Positions 37,801-64,000 of a stretch of DNA of 64,000 nucleotides are shown here, piece after piece (position 1 is the stretch's first letter; every line of letters starts with the position of its first letter). Origin of the DNA: Saccostrea echinata (Eukaryota); NCBI RefSeq assembly GCF_033153115.1, contig NW_026889808.1, positions 744,001 through 808,000 of the forward strand. Direction: 5' to 3'. The translations under genes and the position numbers were made by a program. The notes below the pieces were generated by a model. That model searched no databases and was not told the origin of the DNA. It saw only the letters and a program-made list of their open reading frames with translations.

Positions 37801-40800
37801 CCAACGCGTCCAGAAATTCGAAGTTTTAATAACTTGTAGATGAAATAAGATTTTTATTATATTTTAGTATGAAATGCTATATCAACATATAAGTCATAAA
37901 ATCATACAGAAAATTTGAGAAAACATTAACTTCAAATCTGTGTCCAAGCACCTTTAACAATAAATACTAACATTTATTCTAATTGTTAGCCATCTTATTT
38001 ATTTGCCTTTCATATTTAACATTACTGTGGGAAAAACCCACAAATTTAACAAAAATTGTTACTTGAACTATACAACTAAAGCATTTCTCCAATTCCTTAA
38101 AAAGATGAAAAAAAATCTAGCATAAATTTATGTTACAAATTACTTATCAAACAGAATTTAGCCTAGTAAAGGCTAGTCAACTGTCAAGTACTGTAAGTCG
38201 TTTTAATTCCACGGTGTTAAAATTTCACAATTTCTCAAAGAGTACCAGCCGCGATGGTTTTAATTTCACGCTGCAAGAAATTAATTTAAATTTAAATTTT
38301 GTATAGGCATTTAAATGTTTTAAAAAAACTAATGATAGCATTCACGATGGCTTTAATTTCGTGGAAAAATGATGAATCGCGAACATAGTGAAATTAAAAC
38401 CATTGTGATTATTTGCCAGTCTACAGTATATGGGATGTAATTTTTATTTTTATTTCTGCATTAATTAAATTGATTAAATAAGTTTTATTATAATACATTT
38501 ATTCCTTTACCGTGTTAATTACATCCTGTATCAGCTGTAATTCCCCCATCAGTTTGAGGTCACTAGGTTTACTGGAGTTCAGGGACCCCACGGAATGTCT
38601 CTGTAGCACGGAGTCCGAGTCCAACAGCCGGTCAGACATCTTCCTCAATGTATCAGGAAGTTTATGGAAAACATCAAAGTCAGAGTGGACATCAAAAAAC
38701 TAAAAGAAAAATGTACTTCTGAATCAATTATTGAACCATAAACTTCAAAAGAAATATGTACAGAAAATTCTTGAAGTTTGCATGCATATGTATGTTTTAT
38801 AATAGACAATGAAAGGTGAAACTGCGGATGAATTATATTTAATTTATATTCAATAAATATATGAATCCACTGTAAAATGTCCACGTCATTTTAATGGATT
38901 CTGAAATCTGTTATGTCTATGTACTATTGTATTCTAGAGGTATGTATTTGAATACAGCTACAAATTATAATAAATAAAATTACCATATTTCAATGGAATC
39001 TAAATTCATTAAGACTGTATGCTCTTCTAGGAGTATGTACTTGAATGATAGACCATACTCAAAATTACCACATTATCATAAACGCAGAGTAAACAGCTTT
39101 AAATATTTACATTGTTATCCATGCCTGCATCAAGTAACAATGGGCTCTGATCAAAGAAAACACCCTGAAGTGTGTTCATCAGAGAGGCAATGTCCACCAT
39201 AGGAATATCCTACAATTAAAGGAAGAACTTTTATTGGTGACGGTCAAGACATCATTGTATCGTATATCTTAGTAAAGGAAAGGCTTTCATGTAGCAAGGT
39301 ACAACCAAAGCATTACATAAGAATTAACATCAGATGACTGTGTAAGTTAACTTCATTTTTCACCAAATACTTACTGTTTTTACAGGAAAGCGGGCCATGT
39401 TTTTGACAGTTAGTGGCTTATTCTTTAAGTCATTGTGTCCAAGAATTGAAACTAGTACATTAGCCTTAGGTCTTTTGAAGAAGGAATTCTGTGCAAGCCC
39501 ATTCCAGTTGACATCCTAATTTAAAGAATATAAATAGTCAAGAATGATAAAGTGTACACAAGCCATCTGCAGGCTGTCAGAAAATAGCATTTTAACTTCA
39601 CTAATTAGAAGGCATGGATTGTGCTGAATTAAAATAAAAATAAACAAGAGGCCCAAGGTCCTTAACGGTCACCTGAGTATAATACAACAATTTAGAAGTT
39701 AAATACACTGACAGATGAAGCTTTGTTGCCCAAAAGCAAGAGAAGTAGGAAGATCAGGATCAACAAAATAATTAGTCTAGTATTCAGTATCAACTCATAA
39801 CTTAAGTTCTAATCTGTCCCCCACTTAATATTATCACCATGCAGACTATTAACAAACTATTAGTGCTTCTGTACTATTTTTAAACCCATATTAAGACCTC
39901 TAGCATTGACCTCTCTTATGGTCTTTGAAGAACTTTTAATTAGATAAGTTATTTTTGTCTCATTTTTATTTATCTATTACTTACAGGTCTGCCTGATTAT
40001 TAAAACTAAGAAAGTACTTTTTGAATTATACGATAAACATTCTTGCATAATTATCTTATTCTATTAATCTTTCAAATACATTATTTACAGTGATTAATTA
40101 TCAAAGGTGAATGGAAAAGGGGAATAACTTCTCTCAGTAGAATACAAATTAATAGAGCCCTGTCCAGGACCAGAATGCTTAGACAAATGGTCCAGATGTT
40201 CAAAAATCTGGTAGAAATACGCTTACTTATATCATTTAAACTTTTACTCAGTTTGCTTTCGATATACCTAGAAGCAGAGAAGAATTTCACAGGTACAATG
40301 CATTTTCACTACAGATTCAACAAAGCCTTACCCTATCACCAGAACCCAAGACCAAAGGTCAAGAAATTTACAAATTTGGAAGAGTTACCCTCATCATCAT
40401 AACTATGGACTTCAAAGAATTAACACTTTTCCACTATATTATCAAAAGCCCCCCCCCCTTCCTCGTTATGCCAGAACCCCTGACCCTAGGACCACAAGAT
40501 TTAAAAATTCTGTTCGAAGCTCCCATCTTCATTATAGCTAAGCAATTTATTTATCAGCTCAACACTAAGGAGCATACAGGATTAGTTAATGATTAATTAA
40601 TAGAATATGCATTTTCACTATATAATCAATAGAGCCCCCCTACCCCCTCCTCAAGAACCCCAAAAACTGAGGCCATGTATTTAAAAATTTTGGAAGAGGC
40701 ATCCTTGCCTATCATAATCATGCACTTAGTTTGTTTAAATAATCTCCAGTAACAAAGAAGAAGATTTTCATAGAATCAATGCATTTTCACTATATAATCA

Positions 40801-42982
40801 ATAGAGCCTCGCCCTAACACCGGAACCCCTGACCCTGGGGCCATGAAATTCACAATTTTTAAAAAGGCATCCTTATGCATCATAACCATGCACTTAGTTT
40901 GTTTAAAAAATCTCCAGTAGCAGAGAAGAAGATTTTCAAAGAATCAATGCATTTTCACTATATAATCAATAGAGCCCCACCCTAACACCAGAACCCCTGA
41001 CCCTGGGGCCATGAAATTCACAATTTTTGAAAAGGCATCCTTATGCATCATAACCATGCACTTAATTTGTTTAAATAATACCCAGGAGCAGAGAAGAAGA
41101 TTTTCAAAGAAGAAATGCATTTTCACTATATAATCAATAGAGCCCTGCCCTAACACCAGAACCCGTGACCCAGGGGCCATGGCTTTCACAATTCTGGAAG
41201 GGGCCCACCTCCTCATCATAACTATTACTTAGTTTATCACCTTAATGCCCAGGAGCAGAGGAGAAGATTTTCAAAGAATTAATGCATTTTCACTATATAG
41301 TCGATAGAGCCCCGCCCTAACACCAGAACCCCTGACCCTGGGGCCATGAAATTCACAATGTGGGAAGAGGCTCTCTTGCTCATCATAACTATGTACTTAG
41401 TTACTTAATTTAATACCCAGGAGCAGAGAAGATTTTCAAAGAATTAATGCATTTTCACTAGATAGTTGATAGAGCCCCGCCCTAACACCAGAACCCCTGA
41501 CCCTGGGGCCATGACATTCACAATTTTGGAAGAGGCACTCTTGCTCATCATAACTATGTACTTAGTTACTTTACTAAATACCCAGGGGCAGAGAAGAAGA
41601 TTTTCAAAGAATTAATGCTTTTTCACTATATAATCTATAGAGCCCTGCCCTAACACCAGAACCCCTGGCCCTGGGGCCATGAATTTCACAATTTTGAAAG
41701 AGGCACTCTTGCTCATTATAACTATGTACTTAGTTACTTTATTTAATACCCAGGAGCAGAGAAGAAGATTTTCAAAGAATTAATGCATTTTCACTATATA
41801 ATCAATAGAGCCCCGCCCTAACACCAGAACCCCTGACCCTGGGGCCATGAATTTCACAATTCAGGAAGAGGCACTCTTGCTCATCATAACTATGTACTTA
41901 GTTACCTTATTTAATACCCAGGAGCAGAGAAGAAGATTTTCAAAGAAATAATGCACTTTCACTATATGATCTATATAGCCCCACCCTGGGGCCAGAACCC
42001 CTGACCCTGGGGCCATGAATTTCACAATTTTGGAAGAGGCACTCTTGCTCATCATAACTATGTACTTAGTTACTTTATTTGATACCCAGGAGCAGAGAAG
42101 AAGATTTTCAAAGAAGAAATGCATTTTCACTATATAATCAATAGAGCCCCGCCCTAACACCAGAACCCCTGACCCTGGGGCCATGAATTTCACAATTCAG
42201 GAAGAGGCACTCTTGCTCATCATAACTATGTACTTAGTTACTTTATTTAATACCCAGGAGCAGAGAAGAAGATTTTCAAAGAAATAATGCACTTTCACTA
42301 TATGATCTATATAGCCCCACCCTGGGGCCAGAACCCCTGACCCTGGGGCCATGAATTTCACAATTTTGGAAGAGGCACTCTTGCTCATCATAACTATGTA
42401 CTTAGTTACTTTATTTAATACCCAGGAGCAGAGAAGAAGATTTTCAAAGAAGAAATGCATTTTCACTATATAATCTATAGAGCCCCGCCCTTACACCAGA
42501 ACCCCTGACCTTGGGGCCATGAATTTCACAATTTTGGAAGAGGCACTCTTGCTCTTCATAACTATGTACTTAATTACCTTATTTAATACCCAGGAGCAGA
42601 GAAGAAGATTTTCAAAGAAATAATGCACTTTCACTATATGATCTATATAGCCCCACCCTGGGGCCAGAACCCCTGACCCTGGGGCCATGAATTTCACAAT
42701 TTTGGTAGAGGGCTCAATGCTTATTACAATGATGCCAACAGTTTGACTGCTTGATGTCCAGGAGTAAAGAAGAAGATTTTTAAAGATTGCATTATTTTTG
42801 GTGGTTTTAGCCCCACCCCTCAGGCCCCAGGGGGGCAGGGACCATGAAATTCACAATTTTTGTTCTCCTTCACCCATAGATGCTATATTCCAAATTTGGT
42901 TGAAATTGGTTCAGCGGTTTCAGAGAAGAAGCTAAAAATGTTCAAATGTTAACGCATGACATACGCCGACGGACGAGAACGG

Positions 42983-55800: not shown

Positions 55801-58800
55801 CATATCCACATGCTGAGCGATATGCATGAACCATTTTGTAAAAATTGTTTAAGGCTAGTCTACCTACCAGCAATAGGCCGGATGTTGCACCTTGCTATTA
55901 TAACAGTTAATGGGCAATTATCATGAATATCAGGGAACATCTACAAATGTATTAAATTGTTTTTGTATTCAACATACCTGCATGATTATAATAAACAAAA
56001 TTATTTTTTTTTATAATTAAAAAAAAAACAAAAAATGGTATACGTAAATTTTTATGTCTACAAAGTTTTTGAAAATTTGTCCTTGGTATGCAGTGTTTTT
56101 AAATATATTTCTTAATTACTTTCAGTGAAACTTCCCCAGATTGTGAAGATTCTGAAGGCGGGGAGCGGGGAGGGAATCAGTCTGGCCGCAGTCCTGTGTG
56201 AACTCTTTGCCATATCAGCCACAACAACATATGCATTTGCCATGAGCTTCCCATTCAGGTGTGAATAGACTGTGAGTCTGTCTCAAACTAACCAGCCATT
56301 AAAGATTCTTATTTAAGTGTGAATAGACTGTGAGTCTTCTCAAACTCACTAGCCATTTAAGATTCTCATTTAGGTGTGAATAGACTGTGAGTCTGTCTTA
56401 AACTCACCAGCCATTTAAGCTTCCCATTCAGGTGTGAAAAGACTGTGAGTCTGTCTCAAACTCGCTAGCTATTCCATTTAAGCTTCCCATTCAAGTTTGA
56501 AAAGACTTTGAGTCTGTCTCAAACTCTAGCTATTTAAGATTCTCATTTAAGTGTGAATAGACTGTGAGTCTGTCTCAAACTCTCCAGACATTTGATATAA
56601 GCTAATGTGTGAATGAATTACGAGCCTGTCTCAAGCTCAACAATTATTATTTATTTAAGAGCTTTCAATTTAGCATTTGTTTAGGTGAGAAATATAGGCT
56701 GTGCGTATGTCATAAAATCATTACTGTAAGTTCCTAATTATCAGGATGATTTATTATTGCATCATTTTGTGAAAAGTATTGGCTTTTATTTTTAGATAAC
56801 TTATAAACACATATTAAAATGTTCTCACCATTTGACAAGTTCCATTCCAGAAATTAAGTGTTTGCATAAAATAAGAAATCTAAAGTAACATTAATAAGAA
56901 ACTTCTTTTTGTCTCTGCCTGCTGTTGATATAAAATTTTGTATTTGTGTTAAAAAGCTGAGGTTAGCTTCGTGGCCTATGCATGGAGAAAGCCTTTGCTT
57001 GTTAATGTCTCTATCTCAATTTTTCAGTGCTTATGGTGAGGGTCTGTTCCTGACAATACAGACCAGTACTATTGCCTTTCTGATCCTCTTCCTGGGTAGT
57101 AATGCTGCGGGGGCTTTCCTGTTTGGAGCCTCCTATATAGGAATCATGGCTTATCTGCTGTCAGGGCTGTGTCCACTGCCAATATTAGGGGCTTTACAGA
57201 GTATAAATATACCAATAGTTATACTAAGCAAGGTAAGTTTGTAAGTACATTTAAAGTTTGTAAGTACATTAAAATAGAGTCCCTTTCTTTTAGCTTTATA
57301 ATGACTCTAAAAAGATAAAATCAATTTTTTTTTTTTTCATTTTTTTTTTGGTAATTTGACCATTTCTTTTTTTGTAACAGAGTGATTTCTGAGGTACATC
57401 TTCATTTTTAGCTCACCTCAACGAAGTTGGGGTAGCTTATGTAATACCCTTGGCGTCGGTGTCAGCTTAGGCATCCCAGGTTAAGGTTTTTGGAGCAGTT
57501 TTCTTTTCAAGTACTTCTATGGCCTATATTAGTCAGAGATGCATGGAGGATGCTTCTAGTGTGCTTCATTGTACCAGTCAAGGTTTCAGATGCTGCAATT
57601 TCAGCTAAAGAATGACCAGGTTAATGTTTTTGGAGCAGGTTAAAGTTTTTGGAGCAGGTCTCATTTCCAAGTAACTATAAGCCCTATATTGACCAAACTT
57701 GCATGGATGATACATCTAAGGATGCACACTACTGAACTTGCTTTGGATGCTGAATCTGACCTTTATTTTCTGGATGAGTGACCAGGTTAAAGTTTTTGGA
57801 GCAGATGTCATTTCCAAGTATGTATAAACCCTATATTGAACAAACTTGCATGGATGATACATCTAAGGTTTCACACTACTGGACTTGCTTCAGATGCTGG
57901 ATATGACCTACATTTTCTGGATGAGTGACTAGGTTAAAGTTTTTGGAGTAGATCTCATTTCCAAGTAACTATAAGCCCTATATTGACCAAACTTGCATGG
58001 ATGATACATGTACATCTAAGGATGCACACTATTGGACTTGCTTCGGATCCTGGATCTGACCTAAATTTTCCGGATGAGTGACCTGGTTAAAGTTTTTGGA
58101 GCAGATCTCATTTCCAAGTAACTATAAGCCCTATATTGACCAAACTTGCATGGATGATACATCTAAGGATGCACACTACTGGACTTGCTTTGGATGCTGG
58201 ATCTGACCTACATTTTCAGGATGAGTGACCAGGTTAAAGTTTTTGGAGCAGATCTCATTTCCAAGTAACTATAAGCCCTATATTGACTAAACTTGCATGG
58301 ATGATACATCTAGGGATGCACACTACTGGACTTGCTTCAGATCCTGGATCTGACCTACATTTTCCGGATGAGTGACCAGGTTAAAGTTTTTGGAGCAGAT
58401 GTCATTTCCAAGTATGTATAAACCCTATATTGACCAAACTTGCATGGATGATACATCTAAGGATTTACACTACTGGACTTGCTTTGGATGATCTGACCTA
58501 CATTTTCTGGATGAGTAACCAGGTTAAAGTTTTTGGAGCAGATCTCATTTCCAAGTAACTATAAGCCCTATCTGAACCAGACTTGCTAGGATTTTGCATC
58601 AAGGGATGAACAATCTCAAACTTGCTTTGGATGCTGGATTTGACTTACATTTTCTGGATGAGTGACTAGTTCTAAGTTTTCAGTTTTCAGATAAGTCTAT
58701 TCCCAAGTAACTGCAAGCCCTATCAGACCAAAATTGCATAAGTGTTGCATCTAGGGATGCACACTCCAAGGTTATTAGTTTAGTGTGGGACTTTGCCTTA

Positions 58801-60763: not shown

Positions 60764-63255
60764 ATCATCATCATGGTTCCTTTTGATTCCTGGTGGAACA
60801 TAGGGCTTCGGCAACAGTCCTCCATCGCACTCTGTTTTGAGCAGCCTTTTTCAATTGTTTCCAGCTATGTCCACACTGTCTGATTTCCTCTTCACATGAC
60901 CTTCGCCAAGTTGTCCTGGGACGCCCAACTCACCGTTTGCCTCGGGGGGTCCACATGAGTGAGTGGCGCGTAATGTCTCCCGATGGTTTTCGGAGGGTAT
61001 GTCCAATCCACCGCCACTTTCTACGGGCTATTTGTTTAGTGATTGGGTCTTGGTTTGTTGTTTCCCACAGGTTCTTGTTGTTTATATTTTCTGGCCATCT
61101 GATGTTTAGTGTGTGGCGCAGACATCTGTTTGCGAAGGTTTGTAGTTTGTTGGAGGTGGTGTTGGTGACTCTCCATGTTTCAGACCCGTAGAGGAGCACA
61201 GACTTGACATTGGTGTTATAGATGCGAAGTTTTATGGGTGTGGACAGTGCTGTTGATTTCCACACAGGCTTGAGGGTGCTGAAGACGTGTCTCGCTTGAT
61301 TAATTCTTGCTTTTATGTCTTCATCTGTTCCACCAGTGATTGTGACAATGCTGCCTAAGTATGTAAAGAAAACTACATCTTTCAGGTTGTGCTCTCCAAG
61401 CGTAATTGGTGTTTGCTGTTTGTTGTGGAGCCGCATTGCCTCTTTCTTGTCGATGTTCACCTGTAGACCTGTCTTTGCTGCTTCCTTTGCAAGCCTATTT
61501 GTCTTGAGTTGCATATGCTCATATTTCTGGGACATAAGGCATAGATCGTCTGCAAAGTCGAGGTCTTCCAAACACTGAGTTAAAGTCCACTGGACTCCTG
61601 TCTTGCTATCTCTAGTTGTTTCCCGCATGATCCAGTCCACTACCACTAGAAAAATCATTGGTGACAGTAGACAGCCTTGTCTAACCCCTGTCTGTACCTC
61701 AAACGCTTCTGTGAGCTTTCCATTGTGGATGACTTGGCATGTAGCCTCGTCATACAATTGTTGTATGAGGTTGATAAAGGTAGGAGGCGTTCCATAATGC
61801 TGGAGTAGTTTCCAGATGACTTTTCTATCAACACTATCTAAGGCCTTTTCAAAGTCGATGAAGTTCAGATACAGTGTTGACTGCCACTCTAGTGACTGTT
61901 CGATTATTATACTTAGAGTGGCGATCTGGTCTGTACAGGACTTGTCCTTTCTAAAGCCTGCCTGTTCTGGACGAAGTCGTTCTGCTATAGTATCTTTGAG
62001 TCTTTCCAGTATTATTCTTGTCAGGATCTTGCTTGGGAGAGAGAGGAGCATGATGCCACGCCAGTTCTTGCATTGTCCCAGGTCTCCTTTCTTGGGTAGC
62101 TTCACTAAATGTCCTTTTTTCCAATCAGCTGGTACCTTCCCCTCTGACCAGATCTTCTGCAGGAGAGGTAGTAACATATCTGCTGAAGTCTTTATGTCTG
62201 CCTTAAGGGCTTCTGGAGGAATTCCATCAGGCCCAGCTGCTTTCCCACTCTTTAGTTTCTTCAGAGCCTTGATGGTCTCAGCCCTTGTGGGAGGGGCGGT
62301 GATCACTGCTAGTTCAGAGTCTGCTGGTGGTATGTTTGGTGTTGTTTCTGGTGTTGGGCGATTTAGGAGTTCTCTGAAGTGTTCTTCCCAGCGTTTTCTC
62401 TGGTCTTCATCCTTTGTTATAGCGTTGCCTTCCTTGTCTTTTACTGGCTTGGTCTGTGGTGGTCTCTTCCCAGCCAGGGTTCTTGTGATTTTGTACATGG
62501 TACTGAAGTCTCTTTTCTCTTCCGCTTCCTCAGCTTCTGTAGCTAGCTTATTATAGAAGTGTCTTTAATCTCTCCTTGCACTTTTCTTTACTTCATTGTT
62601 TAGGATAGTGTGTCTGTCTTTTAATTCTTGTTTCTTTTGTTCCTCCTCACAGCTCATAATCTGCTGTTTGAGAAGTTTTCTTTCTTCAACCAGTTTCCAT
62701 GTGTCTCCTGAAAGCCATTCCTTGTCTTGCTTTTCTCTTTTCCCTAGGATCTCTTCGCATGTGTCTTTCCAGTTGTCTTTGATGGAGTTCCAGTGTTCTT
62801 CTAGTGGTGTTACTTGACAGACGTTGTTAAGGACCTCAAATCTGTTTTTCAGTGTGATGCTAAAGGTGTCTCTTGTGCCTTTTTTCCTGAAGTCTCTGGG
62901 TGTTAAACTTGATGTGTGGTCACAGTTGTCCTTGAAGGCTTTCAACTTGACTTTAATAGTGTCTTGTACTAGGTGGTGGTCTGAAGCTACATCAGCCCCT
63001 CTTCTTGATCTTGTATCAAGGAGGCTGCGTCTCCACTTCCTTGAGATAGTAATGAAGTCTATCTGGTTCTTGGTTTTTCCATCAGGGGAGATCCAAGTCT
63101 CTTTGTGGATGTTTTTGTGCTGGTAGACACTTCCTCCTATCACAAGGTCATTGAATGCTCAAAAATCTGTGAACAGCTCTCTATTCTCATTCATGTTTCC
63201 AAGTGCCTGGATACCCATGATGAGTTCTTTCCCATAATTGTCTGAACTATCTTGG
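60764..63255 (-). mobile_element. 5'-truncated, decayed RTE-clade LINE (C-terminal half of APE endonuclease plus reverse transcriptase)
   Basis: ORFs 62565-63143 (NQIDF..RGADVASDHHLV) and 60930-62498 (KAAGPDGIP, NWRGIMLLS, EQAGFR, FIDFEKALDSV, GVRQGCLLSP, DLDFADDL, FTYLGS). In-frame stops near 63160, 62565 and 60930. The frame continues VGRPRTTW.. into a (TGA)n tail at 60764-60774. Confidence 0.92.
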
Positions 63256-63545: not shown

Positions 63546-63615
63546 GAAGGTTACACGTAACCGGGTTAGGGTTAGACGTCAGGGTTAGGGTTAGGGTTAG
63601 AAGGTTACACGTAAC
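63546..63615 (+). repeat. Short interstitial telomeric (TTAGGG) insertion flanked by a 16-bp direct repeat
   Basis: gaaggttacacgtaac|cgggttagggttagacgtcagggttagggttagggtta|gaaggttacacgtaac. Confidence 0.85.
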
Positions 63616-64000
63616 AGATATGACATTAAGAAAACTAGCATTTCTATCCGCAATATTTTTTGAGAAGTTCTGATCGTCAAACAGACTCCTTACAAAATTA
63701 TTAACTGCTGCAAAGGGGAAACTTCAGACGTACTGTGCTACAGCATATTCTTGAAAATCAGATGTTGATCCTCAAAAACTCTAAAGAACTTTAAGAAAAT
63801 TTAAAACCATCATATTTTTCAAAAGTCTATAACATCAAAACTTACGACTTTCTGCACTTTATACAACAATGCCTCAAGATAAATTAAAATCTAGACTTTT
63901 TGGTATCATAGACATCTGCTTCTTCAATAAAAACGGAACTCAGAAACTTGCACATCTTGTGATTGGTCAACAGCAAAATTACTTCGTTAAAAACCACTCT

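What the first reader, a model, noticed from the sequence alone, without database searches (positions are those of the whole stretch)
63546..63615. Interstitial telomere insertion with 16-bp target duplication and possible telomerase-RNA read-through
Seen: 38 nt of (GGGTTA)n interrupted by ACGTC lies between exact copies of gaaggttacacgtaac. The target contains the inverted repeat GTTAC-ac-GTAAC and a telomere-like GGTTA. Established: short interstitial telomeric sequences with flanking duplications are interpreted in mammals as telomerase-assisted break repair, and read-through past the human TR template boundary yields GGTTAG-AC.. Inference: GGGTTAG-ACGTC may copy bases 5' of this animal's TR template, predicting 5'-GACGUCUAACCC in the telomerase RNA. 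If so, it gives a way to find a poorly characterised mollusc TR.
Basis: partly seen in the sequence, partly recalled or inferred. Interest (0 to 1): 0.7.

Follow-up and report, generated by a model that had tools for sequence, protein, structure and literature searches.

The report
Telomerase repair scar copying RNA flank
A 38-base patch of telomere repeats inside an oyster-like animal's chromosome holds five odd letters that match the bases just after, not before, the template of the likely telomerase RNA gene found here, so telomerase likely wrote the patch while a DNA break was repaired, starting one round outside its usual template.

Summary
Observation confirmed: a 38-nt telomeric insert with ACGTC lies between two exact 16-bp repeats, and both assembled copies of the region carry it. 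The 5' read-through reading is refuted. I found a single-copy telomerase RNA (TR) candidate on contig C30, with P1.1, an 8-nt template, pseudoknot stems and an H/ACA hairpin, closely resembling published Crassostrea TRs. Its 5' flank would give CG, not ACGTC. ACGTC-AGGGTTAG is instead the exact copy of the template plus its five 3'-flanking bases.

The signature is genome-wide: 52 of 66 isolated tract starts begin with the flank's C. Parent repeat copies show C, TC, GTC or CGTC added at healed breaks. Best reading (0.77): telomerase extended a broken end, re-annealed once 13 nt instead of 6 nt back, and the end was rejoined with a target duplication. No empty allele was available.

This is a variant of vertebrate TERC-ITS (mouse, Xenopus): here in a mollusc and in the middle of the tract. 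The scan noted a similar flank match in another genome (e1-7941320). The validated apple-snail TR has the same flank, so the reading is directly testable.

The parts
63546..63561 (+). Left copy of the duplicated target (16 bp; 18 bp with one mismatch if 63562-63563 is included); holds the GTTAC/GTAAC inverted repeat
63562..63563 (+). CG, where the right copy has AG; likely the CAG priming end changed by one substitution, or a fold-back or untemplated base (not decidable)
   Evidence: C-AG starts in 52 of 66 tracts
63564..63575 (+). Two GGTTAG units, read as two normal telomerase cycles
   Evidence: template
63576..63580 (+). ACGTC: reverse complement of the five TR bases immediately 3' of the template
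63581..63600 (+). Full template copy AGGGTTAG plus two GGTTAG units; the last G (63600) is shared with the right target copy
63600..63615 (+). Right copy of the duplicated target
60930..63158 (-). Neighbouring broken non-LTR retrotransposon (reverse transcriptase RVT_1 and DUF6451); context only, about 390 bp from the insert
63685..63900 (+). Start of a dispersed repeat with many copies at 81-87% identity; context only, the insert lies outside it

Best explanation
The insert's ACGTC-AGGGTTAG matches the template plus 3' flank of this genome's likely telomerase RNA gene letter for letter, so the insert is likely a DNA-break repair scar written directly by telomerase. Shown: the sequence match, the single-copy TR candidate, and the genome-wide bias of tract starts towards the flank bases. 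Inferred steps: (1) a staggered break left a 16-18-nt 3' overhang, probably ending in CAG, which pairs with the template end and the first flank base; (2) telomerase added two GGTTAG units; (3) the new end re-annealed 13 nt back instead of 6, on the U-rich UUG beyond the flank (G-U wobble, A-U, T-G wobble), so the next round copied ACGTC before the template; (4) two more rounds followed; (5) end-joining through one shared G, then fill-in, fixed the insert and duplicated the target.
For: TR candidate: single copy; P1.1 7 of 7 pairs, P2a 9 of 9, P2b 6 of 6, P3 10 of 11, U-rich and A-rich linkers; H/ACA hairpin z -5.08, 0 of 200 shuffles as stable; by-eye match to the Crassostrea rows of PMC8480181 Fig. 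S3; a TERT domain exon is present. Chance of the 5-mer at a fixed register is 5.5e-4. ACGTCAGGGTTAG has 47 hits against 7 for the control. Among 66 isolated, de-duplicated tract starts: -1 C in 52 of 66 (null 0.26, p 3e-19), -2 T in 29 of 52, -3 G in 12 of 29; C stays enriched where -2 is not T (23 of 32), so decay of a telomeric repeat does not explain it. Genome-wide, 510 of 613 starts have C. Parent copies show C added in five junctions, TC, GTC and CGTC in one each. One true telomere has 0 ACGTC in 742 units.
Against: No empty allele: the flanks occur only here and on C30, so the break and the duplication are inferred. This is the only mid-tract, 5-nt case found (5 hits, two are this locus, one is a tract start, two are not telomeric tracts). 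The proposed re-annealing has only three pairs, two of them wobbles. The left junction reads CG, not the expected AG. Positions -4 to -7 are not significant singly (3 of 12, 3 of 3, 2 of 3, 2 of 2). In five of the ten parent-resolved junctions ACGT or ATGT is genomic and only C was added. Many of the 47 hits are tandem copies, and six belong to one dispersed family with no second repeat. Only 12 of 66 tracts end at the template boundary, though the search pattern biases ends. The free MFE fold does not recover P1.1 or P3, and Rfam gave no TR hit. TR expression and activity are untested.
Confidence: 0.77

Rival explanations
1. Telomerase or telomeric DNA seeded the first repeats, then a DNA polymerase switched template to one of the subtelomeric junctions that read GACGTCAGGGTTAGGG, or such a fragment or its transcript was captured. 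ACGT would then be genomic and only C derived from the TR.
For: Multi-copy subtelomeric junctions match the insert from the G before ACGTC to its end (L030, L057, L058, L060, L065, L050). The arrays on C56 and C28 hold 8 and 5 ACGTC junction copies.
Against: The match upstream of ACGTC is at most one base in every held locus. It needs an extra template switch. Direct copying of up to four flank bases is already indicated by parent copies.
Confidence: 0.13
2. ACGTC is random end-joining filler or later mutation in a plain interstitial telomeric tract, and the match to the TR is chance.
For: Only five bases are involved. Random additions occur at 12 of 66 horse loci.
Against: p = 5.5e-4 for the register. 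The flank was predicted from the C. gigas TR before this genome's TR was found. The same flank biases tract starts genome-wide.
Confidence: 0.05
3. A non-LTR retrotransposon's endonuclease and reverse transcriptase inserted a copy of telomeric RNA, which would explain the 16-18 bp duplication.
For: Duplications of this size are typical of LINE insertion (recalled, no call). A LINE fragment lies about 390 bp away.
Against: ACGTC is absent from the one true telomere read (0 in 742 units). A single pass over the TR cannot give repeated units. There is no poly(A) tail. A LINE endonuclease could still have made the break.
Confidence: 0.04
4. One reading: ACGTC is read-through past the 5' template boundary.
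For: Read-through-type loci exist in vertebrates (4 of 41). CG, CGG and TGG spacers in subtelomeric arrays here fit short read-through.
Against: The TR candidate's 5' flank gives CG then the P1.1 stem, not ACGTC. None of the eight other GACGTCTAACCC loci looks like a TR.
Confidence: 0.01

Closest known systems
TERC-ITS, organisation C (Sola et al. 2021, PMC8537989; passages read)
   Same: Interstitial telomeric repeats preceded, in the same orientation, by a copy of the sequence immediately 3' of the template; interpreted as telomerase acting at a double-strand break.
   Different: Known from 1 of 41 vertebrate loci (Xenopus, head-to-head). Here it is a mollusc, the flank copy is 5 nt, it sits in the middle of a one-way tract, and the target is duplicated.
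Mouse TERC-ITS with 3'-flank nucleotides (Nergadze et al. 2007, PMC2246262; passages and section 9 read)
   Same: In 8 of 14 loci a few bases complementary to the template's 3' flank precede the repeats. The mouse TR also has an 8-nt-type template followed by GA.
   Different: There the flank is copied with the first hexamer, after an inverted TERC 3'-domain piece. Here there is no 3'-domain piece and the flank is copied in the third round.
Short ITS with target duplication (horse, PMC7215372; passages and Table 5 read)
   Same: Direct duplication attributed to a staggered break (3 of 66 loci); in-register microhomology at the break.
   Different: Those were proven with empty alleles, which are lacking here. 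In-register bases were scored against the telomere repeat, not the TR flank.
Mollusc telomerase RNAs (Logeswaran et al., PMC8480181; abstract, section 8, passages and parts of the supplement read)
   Same: P1.1, CUAACCCU template, GAC flank, pseudoknot, H/ACA hairpin.
   Different: The candidate differs in sequence from both Crassostrea rows, so it is a further species' TR. In the parts read, the paper treats the apple-snail template as 8 nt and does not discuss copying of the flank.

Membership tests
TERC-ITS (type C) | At least one telomeric hexamer at an internal site | tested here: met
   Five GGTTAG-type units plus a template copy, 0.8 Mb into a 2.2-Mb contig and 18 Mb into the 36-Mb C30
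TERC-ITS (type C) | Adjacent non-template TR sequence from just 3' of the template, same orientation | tested here: met
   ACGTC-AGGGTTAG equals the TR copy; only 5 nt, and internal rather than at the tract start
TERC-ITS (type C) | TR-like piece found by BLAST with the TR as query, as in the published screen | tested here: not met
   A TR query returned only the TR locus itself; the piece is too short for this operational criterion
TERC-ITS (type C) | One-step insertion shown by an empty orthologous locus or allele | not testable with these tools
   No relatives held; both assembled copies carry the insert
TERC-ITS (type B, 5' read-through) | Non-telomeric bases equal the sequence 5' of the template | tested here: not met
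   5' flank predicts CG
Protostome telomerase RNA (C30 locus) | Template of about 1.5 repeats with adjacent P1.1 stem | tested here: met
   L047 1501-1508 and 1480-1498
Protostome telomerase RNA (C30 locus) | Pseudoknot P2/P3 with U-rich and A-rich linkers | tested here: met
   Pairings counted; not recovered by the pseudoknot-free fold; covariation not tested
Protostome telomerase RNA (C30 locus) | Box H/ACA hairpin at the 3' end | tested here: met
   H box at L047 1747, ACA at 1811, hairpin z -5.08
Protostome telomerase RNA (C30 locus) | Single copy | tested here: met
   1 match
Protostome telomerase RNA (C30 locus) | Expressed, binds TERT, reconstitutes activity | not testable with these tools
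   Needs RNA data for this locus and an in vitro assay
Transposable element | Insert plus flanks recur as a dispersed family | tested here: not met
   Flanks match only C30; the insert matches only telomeric tracts

The most novel reading that the evidence does not exclude
The so-called 8-nt template of oysters, apple snail and abalone is functionally longer. Its conserved GAC flank is the 11-nt template's AAC with one A-to-G change, and it serves as a wobble alignment region. The U-rich bases beyond it are a landing pad for broken ends. Telomerase therefore writes flank bases at most healed breaks, occasionally in mid-tract as here, and produces the GGTCAG variant repeat. The starts of interstitial tracts then form a genomic read-out from which unknown invertebrate TR genes can be predicted.
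Probability: 0.45. Interest if true: 0.68.

Novelty: new variant of a known kind. Interest (0 to 1): 0.5.

Why it matters
It extends telomerase-RNA-templated break repair, so far described in vertebrates in the papers found, to a mollusc, with the TR candidate in hand. The genomic record suggests which RNA bases telomerase uses for alignment in vivo, and that the 3' edge of the template is soft in short-template TRs. It also gives a cheap way to find TR genes: the bases in front of interstitial tracts spell the template's 3' flank, and here a 13-mer narrowed 923 Mb to 47 places, one of them the TR. The validated apple-snail TR has the same GACGU flank, so an existing in vitro system can test it.

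Tried and rejected
(1) 5' read-through motif: 10 hits against 64 for the control; none is a TR.

(2) Empty allele or paralogue of the flanks: none found. Sequencing-run search: none was listed, which is no evidence either way.

(3) L005 (GGGTTAGACGTCAG inside a dispersed repeat) as a second case: it replaces family sequence of similar length, but the family is only about 72% alike, so it is inconclusive and was dropped.

(4) My first idea that ATGTC starts are CpG-decayed ACGTC: rejected, since parent copies show ATGT is genomic.

(5) Rfam scan of the TR locus: only a chance frameshift-element hit at E 0.94.

(6) Read-through at the ends of isolated tracts: only 1 of 12 tracts ending in TTAG is followed by CG. 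The 33 hits are mostly tandem subtelomeric copies (30 of 33 seen), and its reversed control is uninformative.

(7) Target duplication as the rule: only 2 of 66 tracts have 8 bp or more; shuffled mean 0.36, maximum 2.

(8) Contig ends: 1 of 15 fetched ends held a long true telomere.

(9) Literature searches for a mollusc or invertebrate precedent (listings only unless cited as read) showed none. The library lacks most subscription journals.

Full report
Observation. The sequence is as described: a 16-bp target at 63546-63561 and 63600-63615 flanks 38 nt of telomeric repeats interrupted by ACGTC at 63576-63580. It is the window's only telomeric tract and the target occurs only twice. The site lies in about 400 bp of unique DNA between a broken non-LTR retrotransposon and a dispersed repeat. 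Contig C30 carries the same insert. It is collinear with the window's contig: 95-98% identical in pieces further left and 99.75-99.8% over the 20 kb around the insert. I read it as the other haplotype. No empty copy exists in the assembly.

The predicted 5'-flank word has 10 hits against 64 for its control. Two are the insert and its C30 copy; the other eight show no TR anatomy by eye. The published protostome alignment (PMC8480181, Fig. S3 rows) shows that in Crassostrea gigas GACGU follows the template CUAACCCU on its 3' side. That suggested reading the insert's right-hand junction instead. ACGTCAGGGTTAG has 47 hits against 7. I viewed 40 of the 47; the seven not fetched were six further C56 array copies and the window itself. 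One hit, L047, is the TR candidate.

The TR candidate. It lies on C30, + strand, template at 31,810,327-334, and is single-copy. It has a 7-bp P1.1, a 2-nt CG linker, the 8-nt template, the 3' flank GACGU then UUGUUUU, P2a 9 of 9 pairs, P2b 6 of 6, P3 10 of 11, and U-rich and A-rich linkers. A terminal hairpin between an H box and ACA folds at z -5.08. It resembles the two Crassostrea rows in these parts by eye, so the animal is probably an oyster. Caveats: P1 pairs poorly in my hand-set register, the free fold misses P1.1 and P3 (the constrained fold is about 7 kcal/mol less stable), Rfam gave no TR hit, and expression is untested. One TERT domain exon was found on C56. My note gave the template as L047 1502-1509; one search corrects it to 1501-1508. 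The 3' flank yields ACGTC exactly.

Genome-wide signature. An unbiased pattern for tract starts gave 613 hits, 103 with A or G before AGGGTTAG, so 510 of 613 have C; this count includes subtelomeric copies. Of the first 100 listed I analysed 88 and skipped 12 presumed tandem copies. 73 had no telomeric unit in the 150 nt upstream and 66 remained after de-duplication. C at -1: 52 of 66 (null 0.26, p 3e-19). T at -2: 29 of 52 (p 5e-4). G at -3: 12 of 29 (p 0.002). Positions -4 to -7 were not significant singly, but 8 of 12 GTC starts are ACGTC or ATGTC (p 5e-4, post hoc). C remains enriched where -2 is not T (23 of 32).

Parent copies. Among 20 distinct contexts before ACGTC/ATGTC starts in the held loci, 13 have A next upstream, as the RNA predicts. 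Of the 19 outside this locus, ten have related copies that continue differently, one is doubtful and eight have none. In five (L186, L099, L101, L030, L050) the parent ends in ATGT or ACGT and only C is new. In L031 TC is new (one parent copy), in L059 GTC, in L039 CGTC. L051 and L055 are ambiguous. So broken ends appear to pair with the flank in several registers, and the remaining flank bases are copied. The window's insert is the 5-nt end of this series and the only mid-tract case found.

Mechanism. Numbering the template from C1, the insert parses as GGTTAG, GGTTAG, ACGTCAGGGTTAG, GGTTAG, GGTTAG (63564-63600). Normal realignment puts the primer's last G on C7. The odd round puts it on U14, held by a G-U wobble, an A-U pair and a T-G wobble (inference). 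The last G is shared with the right target copy; this fits a stop at the template boundary but is one base and weak evidence, since only 12 of 66 tracts end there. The target continues AG on the right, so the original priming end was probably CAG, the commonest start, with a later A-to-C change; a fold-back C from the target's palindrome is the alternative. The duplication is read as a staggered break, as for 3 of 66 horse loci. It is uncommon here too: 2 of 66. A true telomere of 742 units has no ACGTC, so the slip seems rare in ordinary elongation, though an assembly consensus hides single-molecule variants.

Rival that remains. Subtelomeric arrays hold many GACGTCAGGGTTAG junctions that could have served as a DNA template. 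I cannot exclude this; it needs one more step and has only one base of upstream homology.

Wider reading. In the supplement rows seen, molluscs with the 8-nt template (two Crassostrea, Pomacea diffusa, two Haliotis) have GAC next. Mytilus, Modiolus and Mizuhopecten have AAC at those positions as part of a longer template; Pinctada and Bathymodiolus differ. GAC is thus likely a degenerate alignment region (inference). Only the AC of ACGTC lies beyond even an 11-nt template. GGTCAG, which this flank would template, makes up 45 of 83 single-change variant contexts in the held loci, with none for the other T-to-C variant. Array amplification may inflate this, and TCAGGG is also a known human variant (search listing) where the flank differs.

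Comparison. Copying of the template's 3' flank is published for mouse (8 of 14 TERC-ITS) and Xenopus (1 of 41). The alignment and templating regions are described in PMC4993307 (passages). My searches listed no mollusc or invertebrate case and no mid-tract case; supplements of the ITS papers were not read and may list short mid-tract cases. The scan's own notes hold a similar flank match in another genome (e1-7941320), seen after my reading was formed and not checked.

Verdict. Interest 0.5.

Noticed in passing
L182, L189, L191 (subtelomeric arrays); L149-L176: The spacers CG, CGG and TGG between GGTTAG units match the TR's 5' flank copy (CGG) or a CpG-decayed form, so short 5' read-through may exist, amplified in arrays.
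   Followed up: partly
L187 and other held loci: GGTCAG is 45 of 83 single-change repeat variants, four of them inside the true telomere; it is the variant the TR flank would template.
   Followed up: partly
L075, L108, L115: Head-to-head telomeric tracts; in L108 and L115 both arms start with flank bases, like the Xenopus type C locus.
   Followed up: no
L110, L068, L055: Other short tracts with direct repeats: 42 bp, 10 bp, and an 8-bp repeat that itself matches the TR flank copy.
   Followed up: partly
G000 C56 42.6-188 kb, C28 18.39-18.40 Mb, C7 end, C69: Subtelomeric tandem units of about 20.8, 2.6 and 1.78 kb that carry telomeric tracts; possibly telomere-associated mobile elements.
   Followed up: no
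window 60930-63158 (-): Broken non-LTR retrotransposon, RVT_1 E 3.5e-30, with a stop between the upstream frame and the reverse transcriptase frame.
   Followed up: partly
L181 2727-4358 (-), 3-4 kb right of the window: Three open frames that look like B-box, coiled-coil and NHL-repeat parts of a TRIM-type gene (label recalled, not scanned).
   Followed up: no
G000 C59 and C30: C59 (2.2 Mb) looks like an unpurged second haplotype of part of C30, with a nearly identical block around the insert.
   Followed up: partly
window 6978-8937, 40607-42711, 57636-58680: Tandem arrays with 146-, 168- and 147-bp units.
   Followed up: no
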